From IMG/VR virus record IMGVR_UViG_3300001598_001658, positions 1 through 64,000 of that record: a DNA stretch of 64,000 nucleotides; one strand, given 5' to 3'. Origin of the DNA: a virus. Taxonomy: Duplodnaviria; Caudoviricetes. The position numbers and the translations under genes are program-made. Shown here piece by piece: positions 4,327 to 60,582 of the stretch (its first letter is position 1; each line of letters begins with the position of its first letter). The notes below the pieces were generated by a model. The model was not told the DNA's origin. It searched no databases and saw only the letters and a program-made list of their open reading frames with translations.

Positions 4327-5796
4327 TTGGAAAAGACACAGCTCATAATGCCCAATTGGCGCGTTATGTATTACTATGACAAACATTTAAAAGGCCACCC
4401 TTATATTATTAATCAGGATGTTGGTATTGATAAAAGAAATGTTACCGCAATTGAAGGAGGAATCTATTCGCCTGAACTCGGTAATATTGTTGATACAGAC
4501 AAAGATCTCAGAGAATATTCTTGTTATTGTGGCAAATTAAATTCAAGATTGTACGAAGGTGATATCTGTGAAGAATGTGGAACAGTGTGTCATGAAACAT
4601 TTGGTGCTGATCTTGAAAAATATGGTTGGATCTTATTAGGCGAATACTATATTATCCAGCCGGATGCATATGAAATGATTAAGTCTGTGATAGGAAATAA
4701 AAATCTTGAAAGAATTCTGAAGTATCAAGTGAATATTGATATCGAAGGAAATCCAATTGATATCCAAAAAACAGATCCTAAAGCTTCACCTTATCAGAAT
4801 ATAGGTATGATGGAGTTTAAGAAAAATTTCGCAGAAATCATGAACTATTATGCAATGCTTAAACCAGCAAAAGCTGATAAAGCAAAATTCTTAATAAGTA
4901 TGAAACAGAGAATTTTCACAAATGTAATTCCTGTATTCTCAAACTTGTTGAGACCAGCATATGCGAGTTCTAAAAAGAAAATGTTTAGTTACGATAAATT
5001 AAATGGTAACTTAACAAAAATTCTTAGCAATGCGAAGATGTTGAAAAACGGAACAAGTAAGAGATTAAGAGATGGTGGTGAAAAGACTATTCTCTGGTCA
5101 ATTCAGGAAGAATTGCAAGCATATTATAGTATGACAATTTCGGCTAAACTTTCTGGTAAGCATAAAGTCATTCGTTATACTATTTTATCAGCTCGTACAT
5201 CTTTCAGTTCCCGTTCAGTTATCGCATCTTTGACTGATGCAAAATATCTTGGTATGGATCATATTATTATGAACTATAAACAGTTCATCGAAATTTATAC
5301 ATTGTTAATTCTTAACTGTATGATGAGAGGAATTGGAAATCCGAGATTTAGAACGATGACATTATTTGAATTGATTGCGTATTTAAAGAAAGCAAAATTT
5401 TCAGATACTGTAGATGAAAGCATTTATTCGATTTGTGAATTCTTAATTAAGAATCATAAACAGGGTCTTTGGGTAATTCTTAATCGAAACCCTACAATGG
5501 ACCTTGGATCGCAGCAGTGCTTAAAAGTAGTTCATGTTATTAAAGATGCAAATAGTCATGTTATGAATGTACCTTTAACAAGTCTTTCATCTATGACTGG
5601 TGACTTTGATGGTGACGTATTGAATGTATATGCATTAATGGAACTCCAGGTTGCAAAAGCTTATATCGAAGGATTCTCTCCTAGATATTTACTTTTGGAT
5701 CGTACTGGTGATTCGTTGATCGATACAAACTTTATCCCTATCAAAGATCATTATACAACTGCAAATTCATTCTTAACGCCAATTGCTACTAAATAA
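4327..5796 (+). CDS. Phage RNA polymerase beta' N-terminal subunit (probably non-virion RNAP)
   Basis: Zn ribbon YSCYCG...CEECG, SSRSVI, NRNPT and catalytic GDFDGD; TTG start with GGAGG RBS. Confidence 0.9.
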   Translation: MEKTQLIMPNWRVMYYYDKHLKGHPYIINQDVGIDKRNVTAIEGGIYSPELGNIVDTDKDLREYSCYCGKLNSRLYEGDICEECGTVCHETFGADLEKYGWILLGEYYIIQPDAYEMIKSVIGNKNLERILKYQVNIDIEGNPIDIQKTDPKASPYQNIGMMEFKKNFAEIMNYYAMLKPAKADKAKFLISMKQRIFTNVIPVFSNLLRPAYASSKKKMFSYDKLNGNLTKILSNAKMLKNGTSKRLRDGGEKTILWSIQEELQAYYSMTISAKLSGKHKVIRYTILSARTSFSSRSVIASLTDAKYLGMDHIIMNYKQFIEIYTLLILNCMMRGIGNPRFRTMTLFELIAYLKKAKFSDTVDESIYSICEFLIKNHKQGLWVILNRNPTMDLGSQQCLKVVHVIKDANSHVMNVPLTSLSSMTGDFDGDVLNVYALMELQVAKAYIEGFSPRYLLLDRTGDSLIDTNFIPIKDHYTTANSFLTPIATK

Positions 5797-15737: not shown

Positions 15738-15956
15738 ATGAATGAAGATTTATATACAATGGCTGCAAAAATATTATTCGAATGTGATAATATGGCCAAT
15801 TCAGTAAAATCGCTAAGAGAGCAGTTAGATGCTGCACAAGCACAAGGTGCTACAGGTGTAATGCGAGATTTGGAGAGATGCAATAGAAGTGTTATTCGCG
15901 ATGGATTTCAAAAACTCGAAACTGCTATAACTACATTTACAGGAGCATTAAAATGA
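15738..15956 (+). CDS. Hypothetical protein
   Basis: GGAGG RBS; 72 aa, helical. Confidence 0.65.
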   Translation: MNEDLYTMAAKILFECDNMANSVKSLREQLDAAQAQGATGVMRDLERCNRSVIRDGFQKLETAITTFTGALK

Positions 15957-16273
15957 TAACTAATAAACAGAAAGATGATGCTATTGTAGCAATAAACGAA
16001 ATTAAATTAATAGTAAGTCAGATATTATTTTATTCATCAAACTCTTCACTTTTTAGCGAAATAGATTCTGCGATAGCTGCAGGAGCAGCTGGAGGTGCAG
16101 AAGGAGGAGATGCGGCAGCTGATGGTTCTGCTCCACCTGCAGCAGCTAGTGGAGATGCAGCGGCTGCTGGTACAGCTGTTGAGGATTTTAAAACATCTCA
16201 ACTCGAAACGTTAAAAACGAGATTAAAAACAGCTCAAGAAAAATTAAAACAGAATATACAAGGAAATATGTAG
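15953..16273 (+). CDS. Hypothetical protein with an Ala/Gly-rich linker
   Basis: AAGAAGGAEGGDAAADGSAPPAAASGDAAAAG segment; overlaps the stop of the upstream gene. Confidence 0.65.
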   Translation: MITNKQKDDAIVAINEIKLIVSQILFYSSNSSLFSEIDSAIAAGAAGGAEGGDAAADGSAPPAAASGDAAAAGTAVEDFKTSQLETLKTRLKTAQEKLKQNIQGNM

Positions 16274-33340: not shown

Positions 33341-33814
33341 CTATTTGTTGGCAATTTTTCCATCTTCTACATTGATAATTGAAACATTCATGTTTTTCAA
33401 TGTATCAATTGCTTCGTCATTTGATTCTTCTTTGATTTCATCAAGTAAGAAATCCAATGATGGACCAGCTGCTTCTTCGATTTCCTTAGCAATTGAATCC
33501 AATTCGAGCATTTTATCGCAGAAACATTTGTACTTTGTACGATCTGTTTCTTTGATAATTTCAAGTTCAGCAGTAAGACGTGGATTTGGAAAGAGATCAT
33601 CAAGACGTGTTGATTCTTCTTTTTCATCGATACGTTTTTTATCTGCATCACTGAGATCGATAGCTGCAATAGCTGCACTTGCATCTTCAAAACCAAGAAG
33701 GTTATTTGAAGGATCTGAAGCGAGTTTCTTTACAGCTCCTTTAGACATAAGTCCAGGTACATTCTGAATGAGGTTAAGAATTACCTTTGATTTTGTTGCA
33801 ACAGTAAGTTCCAT
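33341..33814 (-). CDS. Hypothetical protein
   Basis: GGAGG RBS before ATG 33814 (MELTVATK). Confidence 0.75.
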   Translation of the reverse strand: MELTVATKSKVILNLIQNVPGLMSKGAVKKLASDPSNNLLGFEDASAAIAAIDLSDADKKRIDEKEESTRLDDLFPNPRLTAELEIIKETDRTKYKCFCDKMLELDSIAKEIEEAAGPSLDFLLDEIKEESNDEAIDTLKNMNVSIINVEDGKIANK

Positions 33815-33909
33815 TATACTTACCTCCATATAAAATATTAGTACTAATACAATTATGTTTTTAAAAAACGTATTAAAAATTAAATACGAATGTACATTAT
33901 AATGGGATA

Positions 33910-34172
33910 GATGATACAATCAATGGCCGAACATTAATTGATTGTTCATCACGCGCTGCCGGCTTCGGTACGCAGAAACTATACTTAGTTATCTGTGGTG
34001 TGACCGCAATTATTATTGTCCGTTGAGATTCCGACCTGCTGCTATAAGCGGCCATTGCCGGATGTTGGGCGTCTTATACCGACGGCGTTTAAGGAGATTC
34101 GTCTAGATAGTTGATGAGTAGAGTATATAGATACTTGTTGATCCTGAGACTATTTAAGCGAATGTTCGGCCA
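33910..34172 (+). ncRNA. Unassigned structured RNA with a long-range pseudoknot
   Basis: 5' hairpin 33910-33950 whose loop region (33924-33935) is exactly complementary to 34161-34172. Several internal helices have G-U pairs that favour the + strand. GC content is elevated. Confidence 0.65.
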
Positions 34173-34186
34173 CCTATTTGTTTTAT

Positions 34187-34251
34187 GTGAACCTGTGGAA
34201 CCCTATAAAAGGATTTTCCCCTCCCACCCGTCCTTTTATCCACAGGTTCAC
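34187..34251 (+). ncRNA. Long hairpin with a C-rich loop
   Basis: GTGAACCTGTGGA/TCCACAGGTTCAC plus TAAAAGGA/TCCTTTTA; loop TTTTCCCCTCCCACCCG. Confidence 0.55.
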
Positions 34252-34365
34252 TTTATATATTTTTTGGATATAATAGATACTGTACAAAACGCCATGTGAT
34301 TGTCAATCACTCCATTGTTAAAGAAATAGAAAACTCTAAATTTGTACAGTATCTTTTTTATATAA

Positions 34366-34438
34366 GACTCTTTAGCTCAGTCGGTAGAGCAACGGACTGT
34401 TAATCCGTGTGTCGTTGGTTCAAACCCAACAAGGGTCG
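34366..34438 (+). tRNA. tRNA-Asn (GTT)
   Basis: Full cloverleaf: GACTCTT/AAGGGTC acceptor, ACGGA-CTGTTAA-TCCGT anticodon arm, TTCAAAC T-loop; no encoded CCA. Confidence 0.95.
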
Positions 34439-34657
34439 ATACTTTCCTCATTTAGTGGGGCACTGCTATTTGAGGGACGTGGGGTTACGCCGATTGTTAC
34501 CACGTACAAATACAAACAATTATGAGCTGTGACTCTCACTCAATTTTGATCATTTGGGGGTTAGAAGAGTCCGATCAAACTCATGACGCTGATACACGAT
34601 AGGTATTATATTTCTATATATTTTTTAGTATATAGAAATATCGGCACCACTTTATGT

Positions 34658-34730
34658 GGGCTTTTAGCTCAGTCGGTAGAGCAACGCCCTTTTAAGGCGT
34701 GGGTCAACAGTTCAAATCTGTTAAAGCTCA
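34658..34730 (+). tRNA. tRNA-Lys (TTT)
   Basis: GGGCTTT/AAAGCTC acceptor, ACGCC-CTTTTAA-GGCGT anticodon arm, TTCAAAT T-loop; no encoded CCA. Confidence 0.95.
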
Positions 34731-34777
34731 TAACTCTAGAATTACCTTCCCTTTTATTTTAGAGTGTCAAAGAACCT

Positions 34778-35362: not shown

Positions 35363-35563
35363 ATGACACTCACAGAAGCACTTATGGATGTTGATATGAA
35401 TACTCATATTACAGTTATAGATACTGAACGCAAAAACTCAAAACGTGTAGTATCTATATTTGAATATATACAACCAGAATATAGTGACAATCATGAAGTT
35501 ATAGAAACTGAAAAAGGAATTCTTGAAATCAAATTTAGGGTTAGGAGCATTAAAAATGATTGA
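35363..35563 (+). CDS. Hypothetical protein
   Basis: AAGGA RBS. Confidence 0.55.
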   Translation: MTLTEALMDVDMNTHITVIDTERKNSKRVVSIFEYIQPEYSDNHEVIETEKGILEIKFRVRSIKND

Positions 35564-37538
35564 AGATGAACTCGTCACTGATATGTGGAAACGAAGAATG
35601 AAAGAAACTCTTCAAATGGTGTATCATGGCGGATTAAAAGAAGATGTTTTGGATAAACTTCTCGATGCAGAAGTTCAGAAATCTTTAAATGAGGGAACTC
35701 GATATGCATATATGAGAGATATCTATAGAGATCGAGTTATTAAATTAGACCTCAATGAAATCATGAAATGGGTGTATGAAAAGAGACTCATTGTTGGAGC
35801 TAATGGAGCATATACATTTGCTCATGACGATGTGCTTGGAGATACATCAATTATGGTTATGGGAGACCTTGAAGCTCGTGCTAAAGAAAAAGCATTAGCA
35901 AAGGAATATGAAAAGAATAATCAATTGAAAGAAGCTACTCTTCATGATAACCTTCAGACAAAATATAAACAGGATACAAATAGTACTTATGGTATTGCTT
36001 GTATGCCTGGTTCTTTCTTATTCTCACCAGACTCAGCTACATTTATTACAACACAAGCTAGACAGCTCATTGCTGAAATGATGTGGTCGTTTGAAAGATT
36101 CTTAGTAAACAATCTTCAACTTCAGAATTATGGAGAAGCTCTTCTCTATATAAACAACTGTTTAAAAGAAGAAAGACATTGGGATCAATATAAAGAATGG
36201 ATTACTTATATACCTACAAAAGAAGATATAGGAAAATATCTTCTCTCTAAATTCACAGATATCGAAAATTTCAATATTAAGACAAAAGAAATTTCAAGAT
36301 CATTGTTTATTTTTATTGAAAGATTAAGTGAAGAAGAAAGAGTTTATTTGTATTATAAATTTAATTTCATTAATTTTATTGAGAAGAATCCTAAAGTGAT
36401 GGATCTTTTTAGACAGATTGCTGATGGTGAAGAAGCATTCCTGAATCCAAATAAAGTACCTGAAATTTACAAACCTATTTGTGATAAGCTTATCGAAGTA
36501 TCAAAAGAATTTTGTTATGGTGAATTCATGGTTACACATAGAGTTGATAAATATTTTGATTGTGAAAGAAAAGCAATTCTTCTTTCTGACACAGACTCTG
36601 TATTTATCATTCTTGGTAAAATCATGGATGTTATTTATGATAAGATTGGTTTGATTTATAAGTATCGAGATAATGATTTTAAACTTGTAAATGCACTTTG
36701 TACATTATGTACAAATTATATTGGAATGAGACACAATAAGTTTGTCGAAGCTTGTAATATTAAATATAAGTTTCCACAGTATAAACTTGATGCGAAAAAC
36801 GAATTCTACTATAAACGTGTTATTCTTTATACAGGTATTAAGAAAAATTATTCTGGTCTTAAGTTACTTCGTGAAGGAAATCTTGTTCCTCCAAAGAAAC
36901 AGATTTCTCACACAGGTATTAAACTTACAGGTTCAAGAATCCCAAAACAAGTTAGTGATTTCCAAACAAAAATTATAGAAGATAATATTTTAAGATCTAC
37001 GGTGGTTGATCCAGTTAAAATTATGTCTGATATAAATGCTGAAAGAGAAATCATTAAAGAAATTATCAAATCTGGTGATAAATCTATGGGTATTCCACAG
37101 AGATTCTCAGGTTATGATAAATACAAAGTTTTTGAATCGGCCCAGATTTGTAGACTTGTTGAAATTTGGAATCGAATTTATCCGGAACAGAAAATTGGTA
37201 ATGGTGAATATTTGATGACATTTGAAACTAAAGTTTATAATGAATCACAATTATATCTTATTCAAGATGTAGAAATGAGGGAGAAGATTCGAAAGGCTGT
37301 ATTTAGTGACAGATGGGATGGAGAAGATAACTTCTTGAAATCTCATGGACTTACAACAGTTGGTATTCCTAGAGATGGAGCAGTGACAGAGATTCCACAA
37401 TGGATGATTGATATTATCGATTATGATCTTATGGCGCGTAAACATCTTCAAGCAATCACCGATTTATTGCCATCATTGAATATGAATAAAGTTAAAACAA
37501 AAGACTTTAGTACATATTCATCATTATTAAGGATTTAA
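35556..37538 (+). CDS. Family B DNA polymerase, C-terminal (polymerase) part, phiKZ/AR9 type
   Basis: Motif B KQDTNSTYG, motif C SDTDS, KNEF, KKNY; no exonuclease domain or motif A seen; GGAG RBS. Confidence 0.85.
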   Translation: MIEDELVTDMWKRRMKETLQMVYHGGLKEDVLDKLLDAEVQKSLNEGTRYAYMRDIYRDRVIKLDLNEIMKWVYEKRLIVGANGAYTFAHDDVLGDTSIMVMGDLEARAKEKALAKEYEKNNQLKEATLHDNLQTKYKQDTNSTYGIACMPGSFLFSPDSATFITTQARQLIAEMMWSFERFLVNNLQLQNYGEALLYINNCLKEERHWDQYKEWITYIPTKEDIGKYLLSKFTDIENFNIKTKEISRSLFIFIERLSEEERVYLYYKFNFINFIEKNPKVMDLFRQIADGEEAFLNPNKVPEIYKPICDKLIEVSKEFCYGEFMVTHRVDKYFDCERKAILLSDTDSVFIILGKIMDVIYDKIGLIYKYRDNDFKLVNALCTLCTNYIGMRHNKFVEACNIKYKFPQYKLDAKNEFYYKRVILYTGIKKNYSGLKLLREGNLVPPKKQISHTGIKLTGSRIPKQVSDFQTKIIEDNILRSTVVDPVKIMSDINAEREIIKEIIKSGDKSMGIPQRFSGYDKYKVFESAQICRLVEIWNRIYPEQKIGNGEYLMTFETKVYNESQLYLIQDVEMREKIRKAVFSDRWDGEDNFLKSHGLTTVGIPRDGAVTEIPQWMIDIIDYDLMARKHLQAITDLLPSLNMNKVKTKDFSTYSSLLRI

Positions 37539-53106: not shown

Positions 53107-55005
53107 ATGATTTCGAATCAGATTGGAACAGGAAATATTAACCTTGTTGATCATGAAACGCTTAAACGAATCATCGAAGATGTACTCGGTGACATCGGAA
53201 GTGTAAAATCTACACTTGGACCAGGTGGTAAAGCAAATCTTATTCATGATGCAGGAACTACATCTTTATATCAGTCGAAAGATGGTTATCGAATTGTAAT
53301 GGATATGCATTACAATGATTATTTCTATGATGCTGTAAGTAAACTTATTAAAGATGCTTCTGCTCATAATAATGCAATCATCGGCGATGGAACTACATCT
53401 GCAGTTGTAATTCTCGAAGCATTCTACAAAAAACTTGAAAAAGTTGTTTCTTCACATGCAGAAGGTTTTGAACACATTTCACTTACTGGTGTAGTAAATA
53501 TTCTTGAAGCTCTTAAAGTTGTACTTAAAGAAGAGCTTATTTCAAACGGTTATATCAACTTCCTTAATAAATTTGATGTTGATGTACAAAAGAAAATTAT
53601 CGTGAAAGTTGCAACTATTGCAGCAAACAACGATAGAACAATTGGTGAATATTGTGCTAAACTCTTTGATAAAATTATTGAAGAACAGAGCGGAGAGCAG
53701 TTATTTGTTGAAATTACACCTAACTATGCAAATGACACTAGTGAAAACAACGAAGTTGGTTTCCATATGCCACATTCATATTATGAACGTATTTTCACAA
53801 CAGAACCTGATCGCTCAACTGCAAAATATACTGAACCGAGATTTCTTATGATTGAAGGTGCAATTACAGATGCAGAAGAATCTGTTATTATGCCAGTAAT
53901 CGATTATGTGTGTGGTATGCAGGAACAGCCTCTCGTAATTGTAGCTTCTGATTATTCTTCAAAGATTCAGGAACTTTTATATAAGCTTCGACTTGGTGGA
54001 ACAATTTTTGAAGGAACCGACAAACAAGGTCGTCCTATGCAGTTTGCAAGACCCGAATACAAGATTTTGCCAATCATTATGAGTGTTGGTGATGATGAAA
54101 GTCATGAACGTTATGGTGATCTTGAAGCAACAATCGGTGGCCATGCAATTCCTGCCGTTACACAGACATGGGATTCAATCGGATCTACTCCTACAGAATG
54201 GGAACGTGTTCTCGGACGTTCTGAAAGAATTATTTGTGTTGAACATGAAACAAGTATTATTGGCGGATATGGTGATCCTGATGTTATCAAAGCTCGCGCA
54301 AAACAGCTTGAGGATGAACTTAAACATATGCAGTTTATAACTGATATGGGTGCTTCTGAACTGCGAAAAGCAAGATACCAGGACCGTCTCGGTATGCTTA
54401 AATCTAACATGGTTGCTATCCGTGTCGGTGGCGACACATTTAAGGAAAGACAGTATAACTGTTTGGTTTACGAAGATGCAATTTATGCCGTAAACTCTAC
54501 AATCAGAAACGGTTTTACTCTTGCCGGTCAGACATCATTGCGACATCTTGTTACTCATAGAGCCGACGAGATTACAGATAAAGTAATTGAAAAACTTCAC
54601 GCTGAAGGTCGTAATGTTACATTCGGTATTCATCGCGATGATGCTCTTAAATCTGCAATTCATAGAATTCTTGAAGTTATCGCAGAAACAATCAATACTG
54701 CTTATGAACAGGCACTTGCAAATGCTATTTTCGACAAAGATGAAATTGAAGAAATTAAGAAAAAGATTTATGATTCTGAACTTAAAAAACCAATTTCATA
54801 TAATCTGATGACTGCTGATACAGAAGAATTGGATTTAAATGAAGAATGCAATATGCTCGTTGCTGGTAACACTGATTACGAAACTTTCTCAGCAATTGTT
54901 GGTATTACAAGTATTTTCTTGAATACTGACAATCTTGAAACATTATACATTCCTGTACGTGCTACACCGGAAGAAATCGCAATTCAGGGTAGAAATAAAG
55001 CATAA
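53107..55005 (+). CDS. Phage-encoded GroEL-like chaperonin
   Basis: STLGPGG, SKDG, GDGTTS, ATIAAN, IRVGG, EDAI. Confidence 0.9.
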   Translation: MISNQIGTGNINLVDHETLKRIIEDVLGDIGSVKSTLGPGGKANLIHDAGTTSLYQSKDGYRIVMDMHYNDYFYDAVSKLIKDASAHNNAIIGDGTTSAVVILEAFYKKLEKVVSSHAEGFEHISLTGVVNILEALKVVLKEELISNGYINFLNKFDVDVQKKIIVKVATIAANNDRTIGEYCAKLFDKIIEEQSGEQLFVEITPNYANDTSENNEVGFHMPHSYYERIFTTEPDRSTAKYTEPRFLMIEGAITDAEESVIMPVIDYVCGMQEQPLVIVASDYSSKIQELLYKLRLGGTIFEGTDKQGRPMQFARPEYKILPIIMSVGDDESHERYGDLEATIGGHAIPAVTQTWDSIGSTPTEWERVLGRSERIICVEHETSIIGGYGDPDVIKARAKQLEDELKHMQFITDMGASELRKARYQDRLGMLKSNMVAIRVGGDTFKERQYNCLVYEDAIYAVNSTIRNGFTLAGQTSLRHLVTHRADEITDKVIEKLHAEGRNVTFGIHRDDALKSAIHRILEVIAETINTAYEQALANAIFDKDEIEEIKKKIYDSELKKPISYNLMTADTEELDLNEECNMLVAGNTDYETFSAIVGITSIFLNTDNLETLYIPVRATPEEIAIQGRNKA

Positions 55006-59532: not shown

Positions 59533-60398
59533 ACAGATAATTGATTTCTGTTAATCCTTGATGTGAGTAAAATCACACATGGTCCTATGAACCTGATAGG
59601 TATGAGTACCGTCAGTAAAAATCATAGGAAAATATCTTCTGAGGAGAACTCAGGGTATTAGTGAAGTAGAAAGGTTTGTCTGCGTGAGAATCCGCACGTA
59701 TCTAGTAGTTTACTTTTGAAACACTTTATCCTTCATATCCAAAAGAGATTTCGCCCGATGTCTTAGACCAAAAGTGTCAAGACTAGGTACAAAAGAGTGG
59801 AATAACGGTGAGCGTATGTCCACAGTGTGATCCCGAAAGGGAATATGAATTATTAGCCCGAAAGGGTAGGATTAAAACGCTAGAAACGTCAATGCTGGTA
59901 GATGGGGTGTTGGCGCTAAAAACCTAGAAGCTCGATAAAAAGAGTGTTTATAGGTGACTGATGTAACGGAGGGTAGCTCGAGATTTCCTAAGTGATGTTT
60001 CTGTTTGATCGTTGATCGGATAGTTTAGATTTGCTATTTTGCGACATATTTCGCTAATAGTGAATCGCATTATATAGGAATTTAAAAATTCGGGTACAAG
60101 CGAACCGGCGCAGAGAGTCCATCACAAGAAAAGCAGAGTATGATCACGTGTCGTCGGAAATGCCGAGTATATTCGAACCTGGCTTGGCTATGCAAAAGCC
60201 TCCCAGGAGCCATGTTAATGTTTCCCTGAGGACGAGTGTTAGGGGTTGCGAAATCTTAGCTATAAGAAAGTAGTGTAAAGTGTGAAGAATAGTTGGATGC
60301 ATAATCCATCGATTTCATCAACCAGATGAATAGAGAAATGTCATATCAGCCGAGCACAGAGCCAAATCCGGAGGGCTCTGTGTTTGGTATTGGATATG
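59530..60398 (+). ncRNA. Large ornate structured RNA, GOLLD/ROOL-like
   Basis: ~870 nt with no ORF in the track and elevated GC. More than 12 helices, including GAAA tetraloops and long-range pairs. Closing hairpin followed by a U-tract. Confidence 0.75.
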
Positions 60399-60582
60399 TT
60401 TTATTTTTTTTATATTTTTTGAATCTTTATTATTCAAATATATTATATATAGAATGCGTTATTTAAGGAGTTTAAAATGGATAAAAATATAGAATCGTTT
60501 TATAATTTAAAATTTTATATTTTATAAAACTTAATATTATACAACATATAAAGAAAATAAATAAACAATATAGGAGAAAATA

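What the first reader, a model, noticed from the sequence alone, without database searches (positions are those of the whole stretch)
33910..34172. Unassigned ~260-nt RNA closed by a 12-bp loop-to-3'-end pseudoknot
Seen: a 5' hairpin GATGA(T)ACAATCAAT/ATTGATTGTTCATC presents TGGCCGAACATT (33924-33935), the exact reverse complement of AATGTTCGGCCA (34161-34172), about 240 nt downstream. Between them lie TGCCG-GCTT-CGGTA, TAGTTATCT/AGATAGTTG, TGTGGT/ACCGCA, TGTCCG/CGGATG, GCTGCT/AGCGGC and CGTC/GACG. The G-U pairs work only on the + strand. A TACA-N6-TG promoter-like motif sits at 33893. I could not fit tmRNA, RNase P, SRP, 6S, hammerhead or group I consensus. Inference: a possibly undescribed structured RNA (ribozyme-like or a conformational switch) heading the tRNA transcript.
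Basis: partly seen in the sequence, partly recalled or inferred. Interest (0 to 1): 0.8.

Follow-up and report, generated by a model that had tools for sequence, protein, structure and literature searches.

The report
Orphan structured RNA in phage tRNA slot
A GC-rich, strongly folding stretch of about 270-360 bases in an uncultured jumbo phage looks like a real non-coding RNA gene with its own promoter and terminator, but no relative of it was found, so its fold and function cannot be confirmed by comparison.

Summary
The stretch is a 44-46% GC island in a 30% GC genome. It folds much better on the + strand (z -3.1) than on the - strand (z -1.7), has no usable reading frame and matches no Rfam family.

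The TACA-N6-TG motif lies in a promoter block conserved in eight related phage loci. It fits the late-promoter form of AR9-type jumbo phages, the nearest cultured relatives. This places the start near 33904. A 22-bp hairpin plus U-run (34187-34266) follows the element.

The "12-bp pseudoknot" reading does not hold. The 5' hairpin and the long-range helix share the loop with linkers of 0 and 1 nt. They are better read as two near-isoenergetic alternatives (-84.3 versus -85.7 kcal/mol).

The element is an orphan. Sequence searches, a covariance model and exact-pattern scans found no homolog in related phages, 152 bacterial genomes or the public collections. The slot between a conserved 157-aa gene and the DNA polymerase gene is hypervariable. 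Relatives carry other cargo there.

The best reading is lineage-specific structured RNA cargo. Its function is inferred only. A second first-stage note had already described the two alternative pairings on this same stretch.

The parts
33866..33904 (+). Promoter block conserved in the clade. It contains TACA-N6-TG at 33893-33904. The predicted +1 is G33904.
   Evidence: Many positions are invariant across 8 loci (alignment A7). All six aligned promoter-sharing loci fit TACA-N6-T-R. This is the AR9 late-promoter form A(-11)ACA-N6-T-R(+1) (PMC7598289). In the own genome (A/T)ACA-N6-TR is 2.4-3x enriched upstream of ORFs preceded by a ribosome-binding site, compared with permuted controls. The TSS is inferred, not measured.
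33910..33950 (+). 5' hairpin: 14 bp with one bulged U, and a 12-13-nt loop at 33924-33936.
   Evidence: -12.7 kcal/mol when folded alone. Pairing probability is 0.98-1.0 in transcripts that end before 34155. Hairpins starting 7-14 nt after the predicted +1 occur at the same position in L006, L061, L066 and L067.
33924..33935 (+). 5' arm of the long-range helix P1. It is also the loop of the 5' hairpin.
   Evidence: Exact reverse complement of 34161-34172. The duplex energy is -19.0 kcal/mol. Pairing probability is 0.96-0.99 for 9 of the 12 pairs in the full-length RNA.
33939..34012 (+). 5' domain: a closing helix (33939-45 with 34006-12) around a branched set of three short helices. These include the UGCCG-GCUU-CGGUA hairpin and the CGCAGAAACUA/UAGUUAUCUGUG hairpin.
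   Evidence: Mean pair probabilities are 0.88-0.98.
34017..34096 (+). Central GC-rich region with a poorly defined fold. Only the hairpin GCUGCU-AUA-AGCGGC (34038-34052) is fairly well predicted.
Evidence: Pair probabilities are 0.10-0.28, except 0.72 for 34038-34052.
34097..34163 (+). 3' domain: a long interrupted hairpin with apical stem GAGUAU-AUAG-AUACUU.
   Evidence: Pair probabilities are 0.65-0.98.
34161..34172 (+). 3' arm of P1.
34187..34266 (+). Terminator-like element: a 13+9-bp hairpin with a C-rich loop, followed by UUUAUAUAUUUUUU.
   Evidence: Pair probabilities are 0.98-0.99. The RNA cassettes of relatives likewise end in a GC-rich hairpin plus a T-run (sequences). Termination itself was not tested.
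34366..34438 (+). tRNA-Asn (GUU). This is context: it recurs as cargo of the same slot in relatives.
34657..34731 (+). tRNA-Lys (UUU), context.
33341..33814 (-). Conserved 157-aa gene that forms the left border of the variable slot.
   Evidence: Relatives at 42-78% identity. It sits at the same position in all related loci.
35523..37538 (+). Divergent family B DNA polymerase gene that forms the right border of the slot.
   Evidence: PF20286 and PF00136. Relatives at 23-82% identity. The nearest cultured relatives are AR9 and PBS1 at 25% identity.

Best explanation
It is a lineage-specific non-coding RNA gene. Transcription runs rightward from a clade-conserved AR9-type promoter, with +1 near 33904. 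The transcript ends, or is attenuated, at the hairpin plus U-run at 34187-34266, giving an RNA of about 270-360 nt.

The gene sits in a hypervariable accessory slot between a conserved 157-aa gene and the DNA polymerase gene. Related phages fill this slot with other cargo: tRNA-Asn, tRNA-like RNAs, two other unassigned RNA families, a small secreted protein and a Ro60-like protein.

The RNA has two competing states. A promoter-proximal 5' hairpin forms first during transcription. Once the 3' arm is made, the hairpin loop can nucleate a 12-bp helix (up to 17 bp with extensions) that pairs both ends of the RNA and closes a three-domain body.

The most likely role is a stable, trans-acting, protein-binding or decoy RNA made together with the phage tRNAs.

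Shown: the sequence features, the predicted fold statistics, promoter conservation, slot variability and orphan status.
Inferred: that it is transcribed, where its ends lie, the switch, and any function.
For: - GC island.
- Fold z -3.12 on the + strand against -1.66 on the - strand; 17 G-U pairs among 119.
- All six frames are closed by at least two kinds of stop codon, so no single reassignment opens one. The 52-62-aa ORFs have no relatives.
- No Rfam family.
- The promoter block is conserved in 8 loci and has the AR9 late-promoter form. The motif is enriched upstream of genes in this genome. AR9 and PBS1 are the nearest cultured relatives.
- A 5' hairpin at the same position occurs in four other loci.
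- The 12-nt arms are unique in the window.
- The two conformers lie at -85.7 and -84.3 kcal/mol, and the hairpin dominates in 3'-truncated transcripts.
- Synteny shows a variable slot.
- Small RNAs of unknown role in phage tRNA regions have precedent: T4 RNAC and RNAD (PMC3014915), and GOLLD and ROOL near tRNAs in prophages (PMC5737381).
Against: - No homolog exists in anything searched, so there is no covariation and no evidence of selection on the fold.
- The central third folds with low confidence.
- Expression is untested.
- The termination signals of AR9-type RNA polymerases are not known, so the 3' end is a guess.
- The promoter motif has T, not A, at -11, a position whose template-strand uracil is strictly required in AR9.
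- A trans-acting role rests only on analogy. No complementary target of 14 nt or more exists in the 145-kb contig.
Confidence: 0.5

Rival explanations
1. It is a cis-acting leader or attenuator. The structured leader and its two 5' pairings decide whether RNA polymerase stops at the 34187-34266 hairpin or reads on into tRNA-Asn, tRNA-Lys, the small ORFs and the polymerase gene.
For: - The order promoter, structured leader, terminator-like hairpin, genes matches attenuation systems.
- The two conformers are near-isoenergetic, and the hairpin forms first.
- No second copy of the conserved promoter block lies before tRNA-Asn.
Against: - I found no antiterminator pairing between the element and either strand of the terminator stem. 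The hairpin is predicted at 0.98-0.99 whichever state the 5' end is in.
- No riboswitch or T-box model matches.
- In relatives the same promoter drives RNAs that do not resemble this one.
Confidence: 0.2
2. It is a DNA-level relic. A piece of foreign, GC-richer DNA or a small mobile or invertible segment, bounded by 12-bp inverted repeats, landed in a permissive slot. Its RNA-like folding has no function.
For: - Perfect 12-bp inverted repeats flank 225 bp.
- The element is absent from every relative, and the slot plainly tolerates insertions.
- Its GC content is far from that of the genome.
Against: - No serine or tyrosine recombinase and no reverse transcriptase lies in the 145 kb held.
- There is no second copy in the genome.
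- The 24-nt arm pattern has no hit in genome or metagenome contigs.
- No target-site duplication is visible.
- The left repeat sits inside the loop of a hairpin that starts just after a conserved promoter.
- Folding favours one strand, which a DNA repeat would not require.
Confidence: 0.13
3. It is a very divergent member of a known RNA class that Rfam models miss. Candidates are a Y-RNA-like partner of a Ro60-like protein, a 6S-like RNA, or a reduced RNase P, tmRNA or SRP RNA.
For: - In the P1 state the 5' and 3' ends pair, as in Y RNAs and 6S RNA.
- Relatives carry a Ro60-like protein with candidate partner RNAs in this very slot.
- There is a short resemblance (UUCG-type hairpin followed by GCAGAAA) to the family X RNA of relatives.
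Against: - No Rfam model reaches E<=10 on the + strand.
- ARAGORN finds no tmRNA.
- No TROVE or DUF2828 gene lies in the 145 kb held.
- The module motif that accompanies the Ro60-like gene is absent from the element.
- The family X model does not match the window.
Confidence: 0.08
4. It encodes one or two small proteins: the 54-aa ORF at 33942-34106 or the 62-aa ORF at 34111-34299.
For: ORFs of 52-62 codons exist. An AAGGAG lies 14-17 nt before the 34111 TTG and the 34114 ATG.
Against: - The starts are TTG and the spacing from the ribosome-binding site is poor.
- The predicted peptides are Arg/Cys/Leu-rich and have no relatives in any fetched locus.
- The 62-aa ORF runs through the terminator hairpin.
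- GC content and strand-specific folding point to RNA.
Confidence: 0.03

Closest known systems
T4 RNAC and RNAD, small stable RNAs from the T4 tRNA region
   Same: They are phage-encoded small RNAs transcribed from the tRNA gene region. Their role is still unknown (PMC3014915).
   Different: I made no sequence or structure comparison. The T4 RNAs are shorter (from memory, about 120-140 nt) and lie inside the tRNA cluster. This element has its own promoter-proximal position and a terminator-like hairpin before the tRNAs.
GOLLD and ROOL large ornate RNAs
   Same: They are structured RNAs of unknown function often found next to tRNAs and in prophages, possibly co-transcribed with them (PMC5737381).
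   Different: They are 2-3 times larger (ROOL averages 581 nt) and widely conserved with covariation. Their Rfam models do not match here. This element is a singleton.
Y RNAs with Ro60/Rsr
   Same: Both RNA ends pair in a closing stem around a variable body. Related phages carry a Ro60-like gene with stem-closed RNA modules in the same slot.
   Different: There is no Y_RNA or YrlA match. No TROVE or DUF2828 gene lies in the contig. The element lacks the module motif and is 2-3 times longer than typical Y RNAs.
Transcription-attenuating riboswitches and T-box leaders
   Same: The order promoter, structured leader of about 260 nt with alternative pairings, hairpin plus U-run, downstream genes.
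   Different: No Rfam model matches and I found no antiterminator pairing. The downstream genes are tRNAs and replication genes, not a metabolic operon.
AR9 late transcription units
   Same: The promoter has the form xACA-N6-T-R(+1). The phage is a distant relative of AR9 and PBS1 and encodes RNA polymerase beta-like subunits.
   Different: The -11 base is T, not A. Whether this phage has uracil DNA, and which of its polymerases reads this promoter, is unknown.

Membership tests
Any Rfam 15 family | The covariance model scores at or above the gathering threshold. | tested here: not met
   Only the two tRNAs pass in the window. On 33900-34270 no + strand match reaches even E<=10.
Y RNA / YrlA | A Ro60/Rsr (TROVE) gene in the same genome, usually adjacent. 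| tested here: not met
   PF05731 and PF11443 are absent from the 145-kb contig. The contig is only about 51% of the genome, so absence from the phage is not proven.
Y RNA / YrlA | A terminal stem carrying the conserved Ro-binding helix. | not testable with these tools
   A terminal stem exists. No reference for the binding helix was available except the Rfam models, which do not match.
   The linkers are 0 nt (33923/33924) and 1 nt (33936), for a 12-bp second stem read directly from the sequence. That they are too short is an inference from A-form geometry. At most a partial contact of about 6-7 bp could coexist with the hairpin.
Retron msr-msd RNA | A reverse transcriptase gene next to an RNA bounded by inverted repeats a1/a2. 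| tested here: not met
   Inverted repeats are present, but there is no RVT_1 match in the contig and the neighbours are tRNAs.
Inverton or MITE-like DNA element | A cognate recombinase or transposase, and further copies with the same terminal repeats. | tested here: not met
   No resolvase or integrase. It is single-copy. The arm pattern is absent from genome and metagenome contigs. The 37 hits to the shorter 9-nt-arm pattern in viral contigs showed no similarity to the element (nhmmer). Their number is about what chance predicts (my estimate), and most lie in high-GC contigs.
Riboswitch or T-box attenuator | An aptamer model match, and mutually exclusive terminator and antiterminator helices. 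| tested here: not met
   No model match. The terminator hairpin is predicted at 0.98-0.99 with no competing pairing.
Family X RNA of related phages (follows tRNA-Asn) | Match to the 5' domain model: cUUCGg hairpin plus the GCAGAA/UUCUGU helix. | tested here: not met
   Model R2 scores its four training sequences at 78-90 bits and finds nothing in the window at E<=10. Only a short motif resemblance remains.
tmRNA / tRNA-like | A tRNA-like domain and a tag reading frame. | tested here: not met
   ARAGORN reports only the two tRNAs.

The most novel reading that the evidence does not exclude
The element would found a new class of phage RNA: a bistable RNA in which the loop of a conserved promoter-proximal hairpin acts as a toehold for the 3' end. 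The RNA would then switch from an open co-transcriptional form to an end-paired closed form. It would serve as exchangeable anti-host or RNA-metabolism cargo, alongside tRNAs, tRNA-like RNAs and Ro60-like/Y-like pairs, in an RNA accessory slot of AR9-related gut jumbo phages.
Probability: 0.15. Interest if true: 0.7.

Novelty: new variant of a known kind. Interest (0 to 1): 0.4.

Why it matters
Phage tRNA regions have long been known to carry stable RNAs whose function nobody knows, such as T4 RNAC and RNAD, GOLLD and ROOL. This element adds an orphan example. More usefully, the comparison shows a fixed, promoter-equipped slot in a clade of AR9-related uncultured jumbo phages that swaps very different RNA cargo. 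If that cargo serves to counter host attack on tRNAs or RNA, the slot would be a place to look for new RNA-based phage functions. On its own, the element cannot be validated by comparison and needs experiments.

Tried and rejected
- Phage database: blastn of 33850-34360 found no match.
- Syntenic slots of relatives: I reached 24 loci, L002-L011, L049-L051 and L061-L069 through the polymerase and the 157-aa neighbour and L071 through a covariance-model search of the own genome. nhmmer found nothing in those reached through the two proteins.
- Covariance model R1 (255 positions, 89 pairs, built from this one sequence). It finds only itself in the contig. It finds nothing in the related loci, in the MAG that holds a 186-kb related phage, or in 151 genomes of that MAG's class. 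The single hit at E 0.6 per genome is chance.
- Exact-pattern scans:
  - 9-nt arms in viral contigs gave 37 hits. None showed any similarity to the element by nhmmer, and most lie in high-GC contigs; the number is about what chance predicts (my estimate).
  - 12-nt arms in genome and metagenome contigs gave 0 hits.
  - Four internal 19-22-mers gave 0 hits.
- The search for related loci with the neighbour protein, the polymerase and a 17-sequence alignment returned no viral-contig relatives.
- Sequencing runs: none was listed and no RNA holder was listed.
- Homology to family X of relatives was rejected by model R2.
- The Y-RNA idea: no Ro-like gene and no module motif. A recollection that the 5' region resembles human Y1 RNA could not be checked, so I did not use it.
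- Antisense targets: no complementarity of 14 nt or more elsewhere in the contig. The 12-13-mers found are at chance level and mostly AT-rich.
- RNase P, tmRNA, SRP, 6S and group I readings by eye were not supported by any model.
- A phmmer search of the DUF2828 protein against solved structures found nothing.

Full report
**Where the window comes from.** The window is the first 64 kb of a 145-kb IMG/VR phage contig, 30% GC, estimated about 51% complete. Its family B polymerase (35523-37538) carries PF20286 and PF00136. The nearest cultured relatives of that polymerase are the Bacillus jumbo phages AR9 and PBS1, at 25% identity over 95% of the protein. After them come other jumbo phages such as Yersinia phiR1-37. 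Related contigs encode an RNA polymerase beta-like protein just upstream. The phage is therefore a distant, uncultured relative of the AR9-type jumbo phages, which carry their own multisubunit RNA polymerases.

**The observation.**
- The sequence features are all real. The two 12-nt arms are exact reverse complements and unique in the window.
- GC reaches 0.44-0.46 against 0.26-0.31 around it.
- The + strand folds at -86 kcal/mol (z -3.12, none of 200 shuffles as good). The - strand folds at -66.3 kcal/mol (z -1.66).
- The model of 33904-34270 has 119 pairs, of which 17 are G-U. These would be mismatches on the other strand.
- All six frames are closed by at least two kinds of stop codon, so no recoding opens one.
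- The 52-62-codon ORFs give Arg/Cys/Leu-rich peptides with no relatives.
- Rfam gives only the two tRNAs at gathering score, and no + strand match at E<=10 on the element itself.

**Topology.**
The 12 pairing bases are the hairpin loop, with 0 nt before them and 1 nt after. A linker of 0 nt cannot span a 12-bp A-form helix (inference from geometry). At most a partial contact could coexist with the hairpin.
- Thermodynamic folding treats the two as alternatives. The hairpin has probability 0.98-1.0 in transcripts ending at 33960-34100 and 0.76 at 34155. Once the 3' arm is present, P1 takes over at 0.98-0.99.
- Forcing the hairpin costs only 1.4 kcal/mol (-84.3 against -85.7). This agrees with a second first-stage note on the same stretch (e1-5821137).
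- In the P1 state two further short helices extend the end-to-end pairing to 33911-33932 with 34164-34186.
- The 5' domain (33939-34012) and the 3' domain (34097-34163) are predicted with confidence. The central third is not.

**Transcription signals.**
- The motif TACA-N6-TG at 33893-33904 lies in a block (33866-33904) that is nearly invariant across eight loci from related phages, while the flanks diverge. All six aligned promoter-sharing loci read TACA-N6-T-R.
- The AR9 late promoter is A(-11)ACA-N6-T-R(+1) (PMC7598289).
- In this contig AACA-N6-TR and TACA-N6-TR are the two most enriched of 16 related patterns upstream of ORFs preceded by a ribosome-binding site. The enrichment is 3.0x and 2.4x over the share of sequence examined.
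- This places +1 at about 33904. That position is an inference.
- In four other loci the transcript from this promoter also begins with a hairpin 7-14 nt downstream of the predicted start. The 5' hairpin is therefore a conserved positional feature of this transcription unit.
- Downstream, a 13+9-bp hairpin followed by a U-rich run (34187-34266) is predicted at 0.98-0.99. It resembles the hairpin plus T-run that ends the RNA cassettes of relatives.

**Comparative result.**
- I reached relatives through the polymerase (23-82% identity) and through the neighbouring 157-aa protein (42-78%). They share the order: 157-aa gene on the other strand, promoter, variable slot, polymerase gene.
- In the most distant relative fetched, the two flanking genes are 138 bp apart. 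In the others the slot holds very different cargo (details under "noticed in passing"):
  - a 129-135-aa signal-peptide protein, then tRNA-Asn, then an unassigned RNA I call family X (L002, L003, L068);
  - a Ro60-like protein preceded by 2-4 stem-closed RNA modules (L006, L061-L067);
  - tRNA-like RNAs with oversized anticodon arms (L007, L008);
  - a structure closed by a perfect 15-bp helix (L050).
- None of these loci contains anything like the element, by nhmmer or by a covariance model built from it.
- The model also finds nothing else in the contig, in a MAG that carries a 186-kb related phage, or in 151 genomes of that MAG's class.
- Exact-pattern scans of viral, metagenome and genome contigs gave nothing, or hits with no similarity to the element.
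- The element is therefore an orphan.

**Interpretation.**
- The composition, the strand-specific stability, the closed frames, the conserved promoter and 5' hairpin, and the terminator-like hairpin together make a transcribed structured RNA the best reading. I put this at about 0.5 for that core claim as worded.
- A stand-alone trans-acting RNA is favoured over a cis attenuator. No antiterminator pairing exists, and the terminator hairpin is predicted whatever the state of the 5' end. The attenuator model still stays at 0.2.
- A DNA relic or mobile segment with 12-bp inverted repeats is possible in such a permissive slot. Against it: no recombinase or reverse transcriptase in the contig, no second copy, no arm-pattern matches elsewhere, and no explanation for the strand bias.
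- The divergent known-family readings (Y RNA-like, 6S, RNase P, tmRNA) found no support. The resemblance to family X, a UUCG-type hairpin followed by GCAGAAA, did not survive a model search.
- Nothing suggests a ribozyme.

**Comparison with what is known.** The nearest analogues are small RNAs of unknown role in phage tRNA regions. These are T4 RNAC and RNAD (PMC3014915), and GOLLD and ROOL near tRNAs in prophages (PMC5737381). The element belongs to none of these families. I rate it a new variant of a known kind. The element alone is of moderate interest, because a singleton cannot be validated by computation. The RNA-swapping slot found around it is the more promising lead.

Noticed in passing
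L002:5069-5400, L003:5468-5770, L006:4610-4985, L049:379-745, L068 about 2290-1990 (minus strand): An unassigned RNA family ("family X", about 250-340 nt) starts directly after tRNA-Asn in five related phage loci. It has a cUUCGg hairpin, then a GCAGAA/UUCUGU helix with compensatory changes, and ends in a terminator. It has no Rfam match. Its 5' domain model finds it only in these loci.
   Followed up: partly
L006:1282-1700; L061:2860-2440 (minus strand); likewise L062-L067: Repeated stem-closed modules of the form AAAG-NNNC-RNACAGCAA...GNNN-CUUG, with covarying NNN, occur 2-4 times per locus. They occur only in loci that also carry a 495-aa DUF2828+DUF7788/vWA protein. The nearest named ESM Atlas clusters of that protein are TROVE/Ro60 (26 of 30 hits, score 0.92-0.93). 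This is a candidate phage pair of a Ro60-like protein and Y-RNA-like RNAs.
   Followed up: partly
L007 about 4363-4468 and 4634-4745; L008:5322-5418: tRNA-like RNAs with normal acceptor, D and T arms but a greatly expanded anticodon region. ARAGORN calls the L008 one tRNA-??? and misses the others. First-stage notes describe a similar RNA elsewhere in this genome.
   Followed up: no
L050:5364-5378 with 5461-5475: A perfect 15-bp long-range helix closes about 80 nt in the same slot of another relative. End-paired RNAs seem to be a recurring form of cargo here.
   Followed up: no
window 34439-34656 and 34275-34354: The spacer between tRNA-Asn and tRNA-Lys (218 nt, GC about 0.40-0.45) and the leader before tRNA-Asn (14-bp stem GATACTGTACAAA.../...TTTGTACAGTATC) also look structured.
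   Followed up: no
window 34187-34251; L005:4700-5560; L007:4290-4350; L008:5260-5330: The hairpins that end or punctuate these RNA cassettes often contain CCUCC or ACCUCCUU runs, like the 3' end of 16S rRNA, either paired with GGAGG or exposed in the loop. First-stage notes e1-5821134 and e1-5821138 flagged the window copy.
   Followed up: no
L002:4470-4859, L003:4817-5221, L006:763-1164, L009:5101-5487, L068:2877-2470 (minus strand): In several relatives a 128-135-aa protein with a signal peptide occupies the position that the element holds in this window (41% identity between two copies, no Pfam family).
   Followed up: partly
whole contig G000: AACA-N6-TR and TACA-N6-TR are the most enriched of 16 related patterns upstream of ORFs preceded by a ribosome-binding site. 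This suggests the phage uses AR9-type late promoters. Further GC-rich islands lie at, for example, 15784-16248, 54023-54638, 59716-60400, 95867-97403, 114485-116554 and 121966-123867. I did not check which are non-coding.
   Followed up: partly
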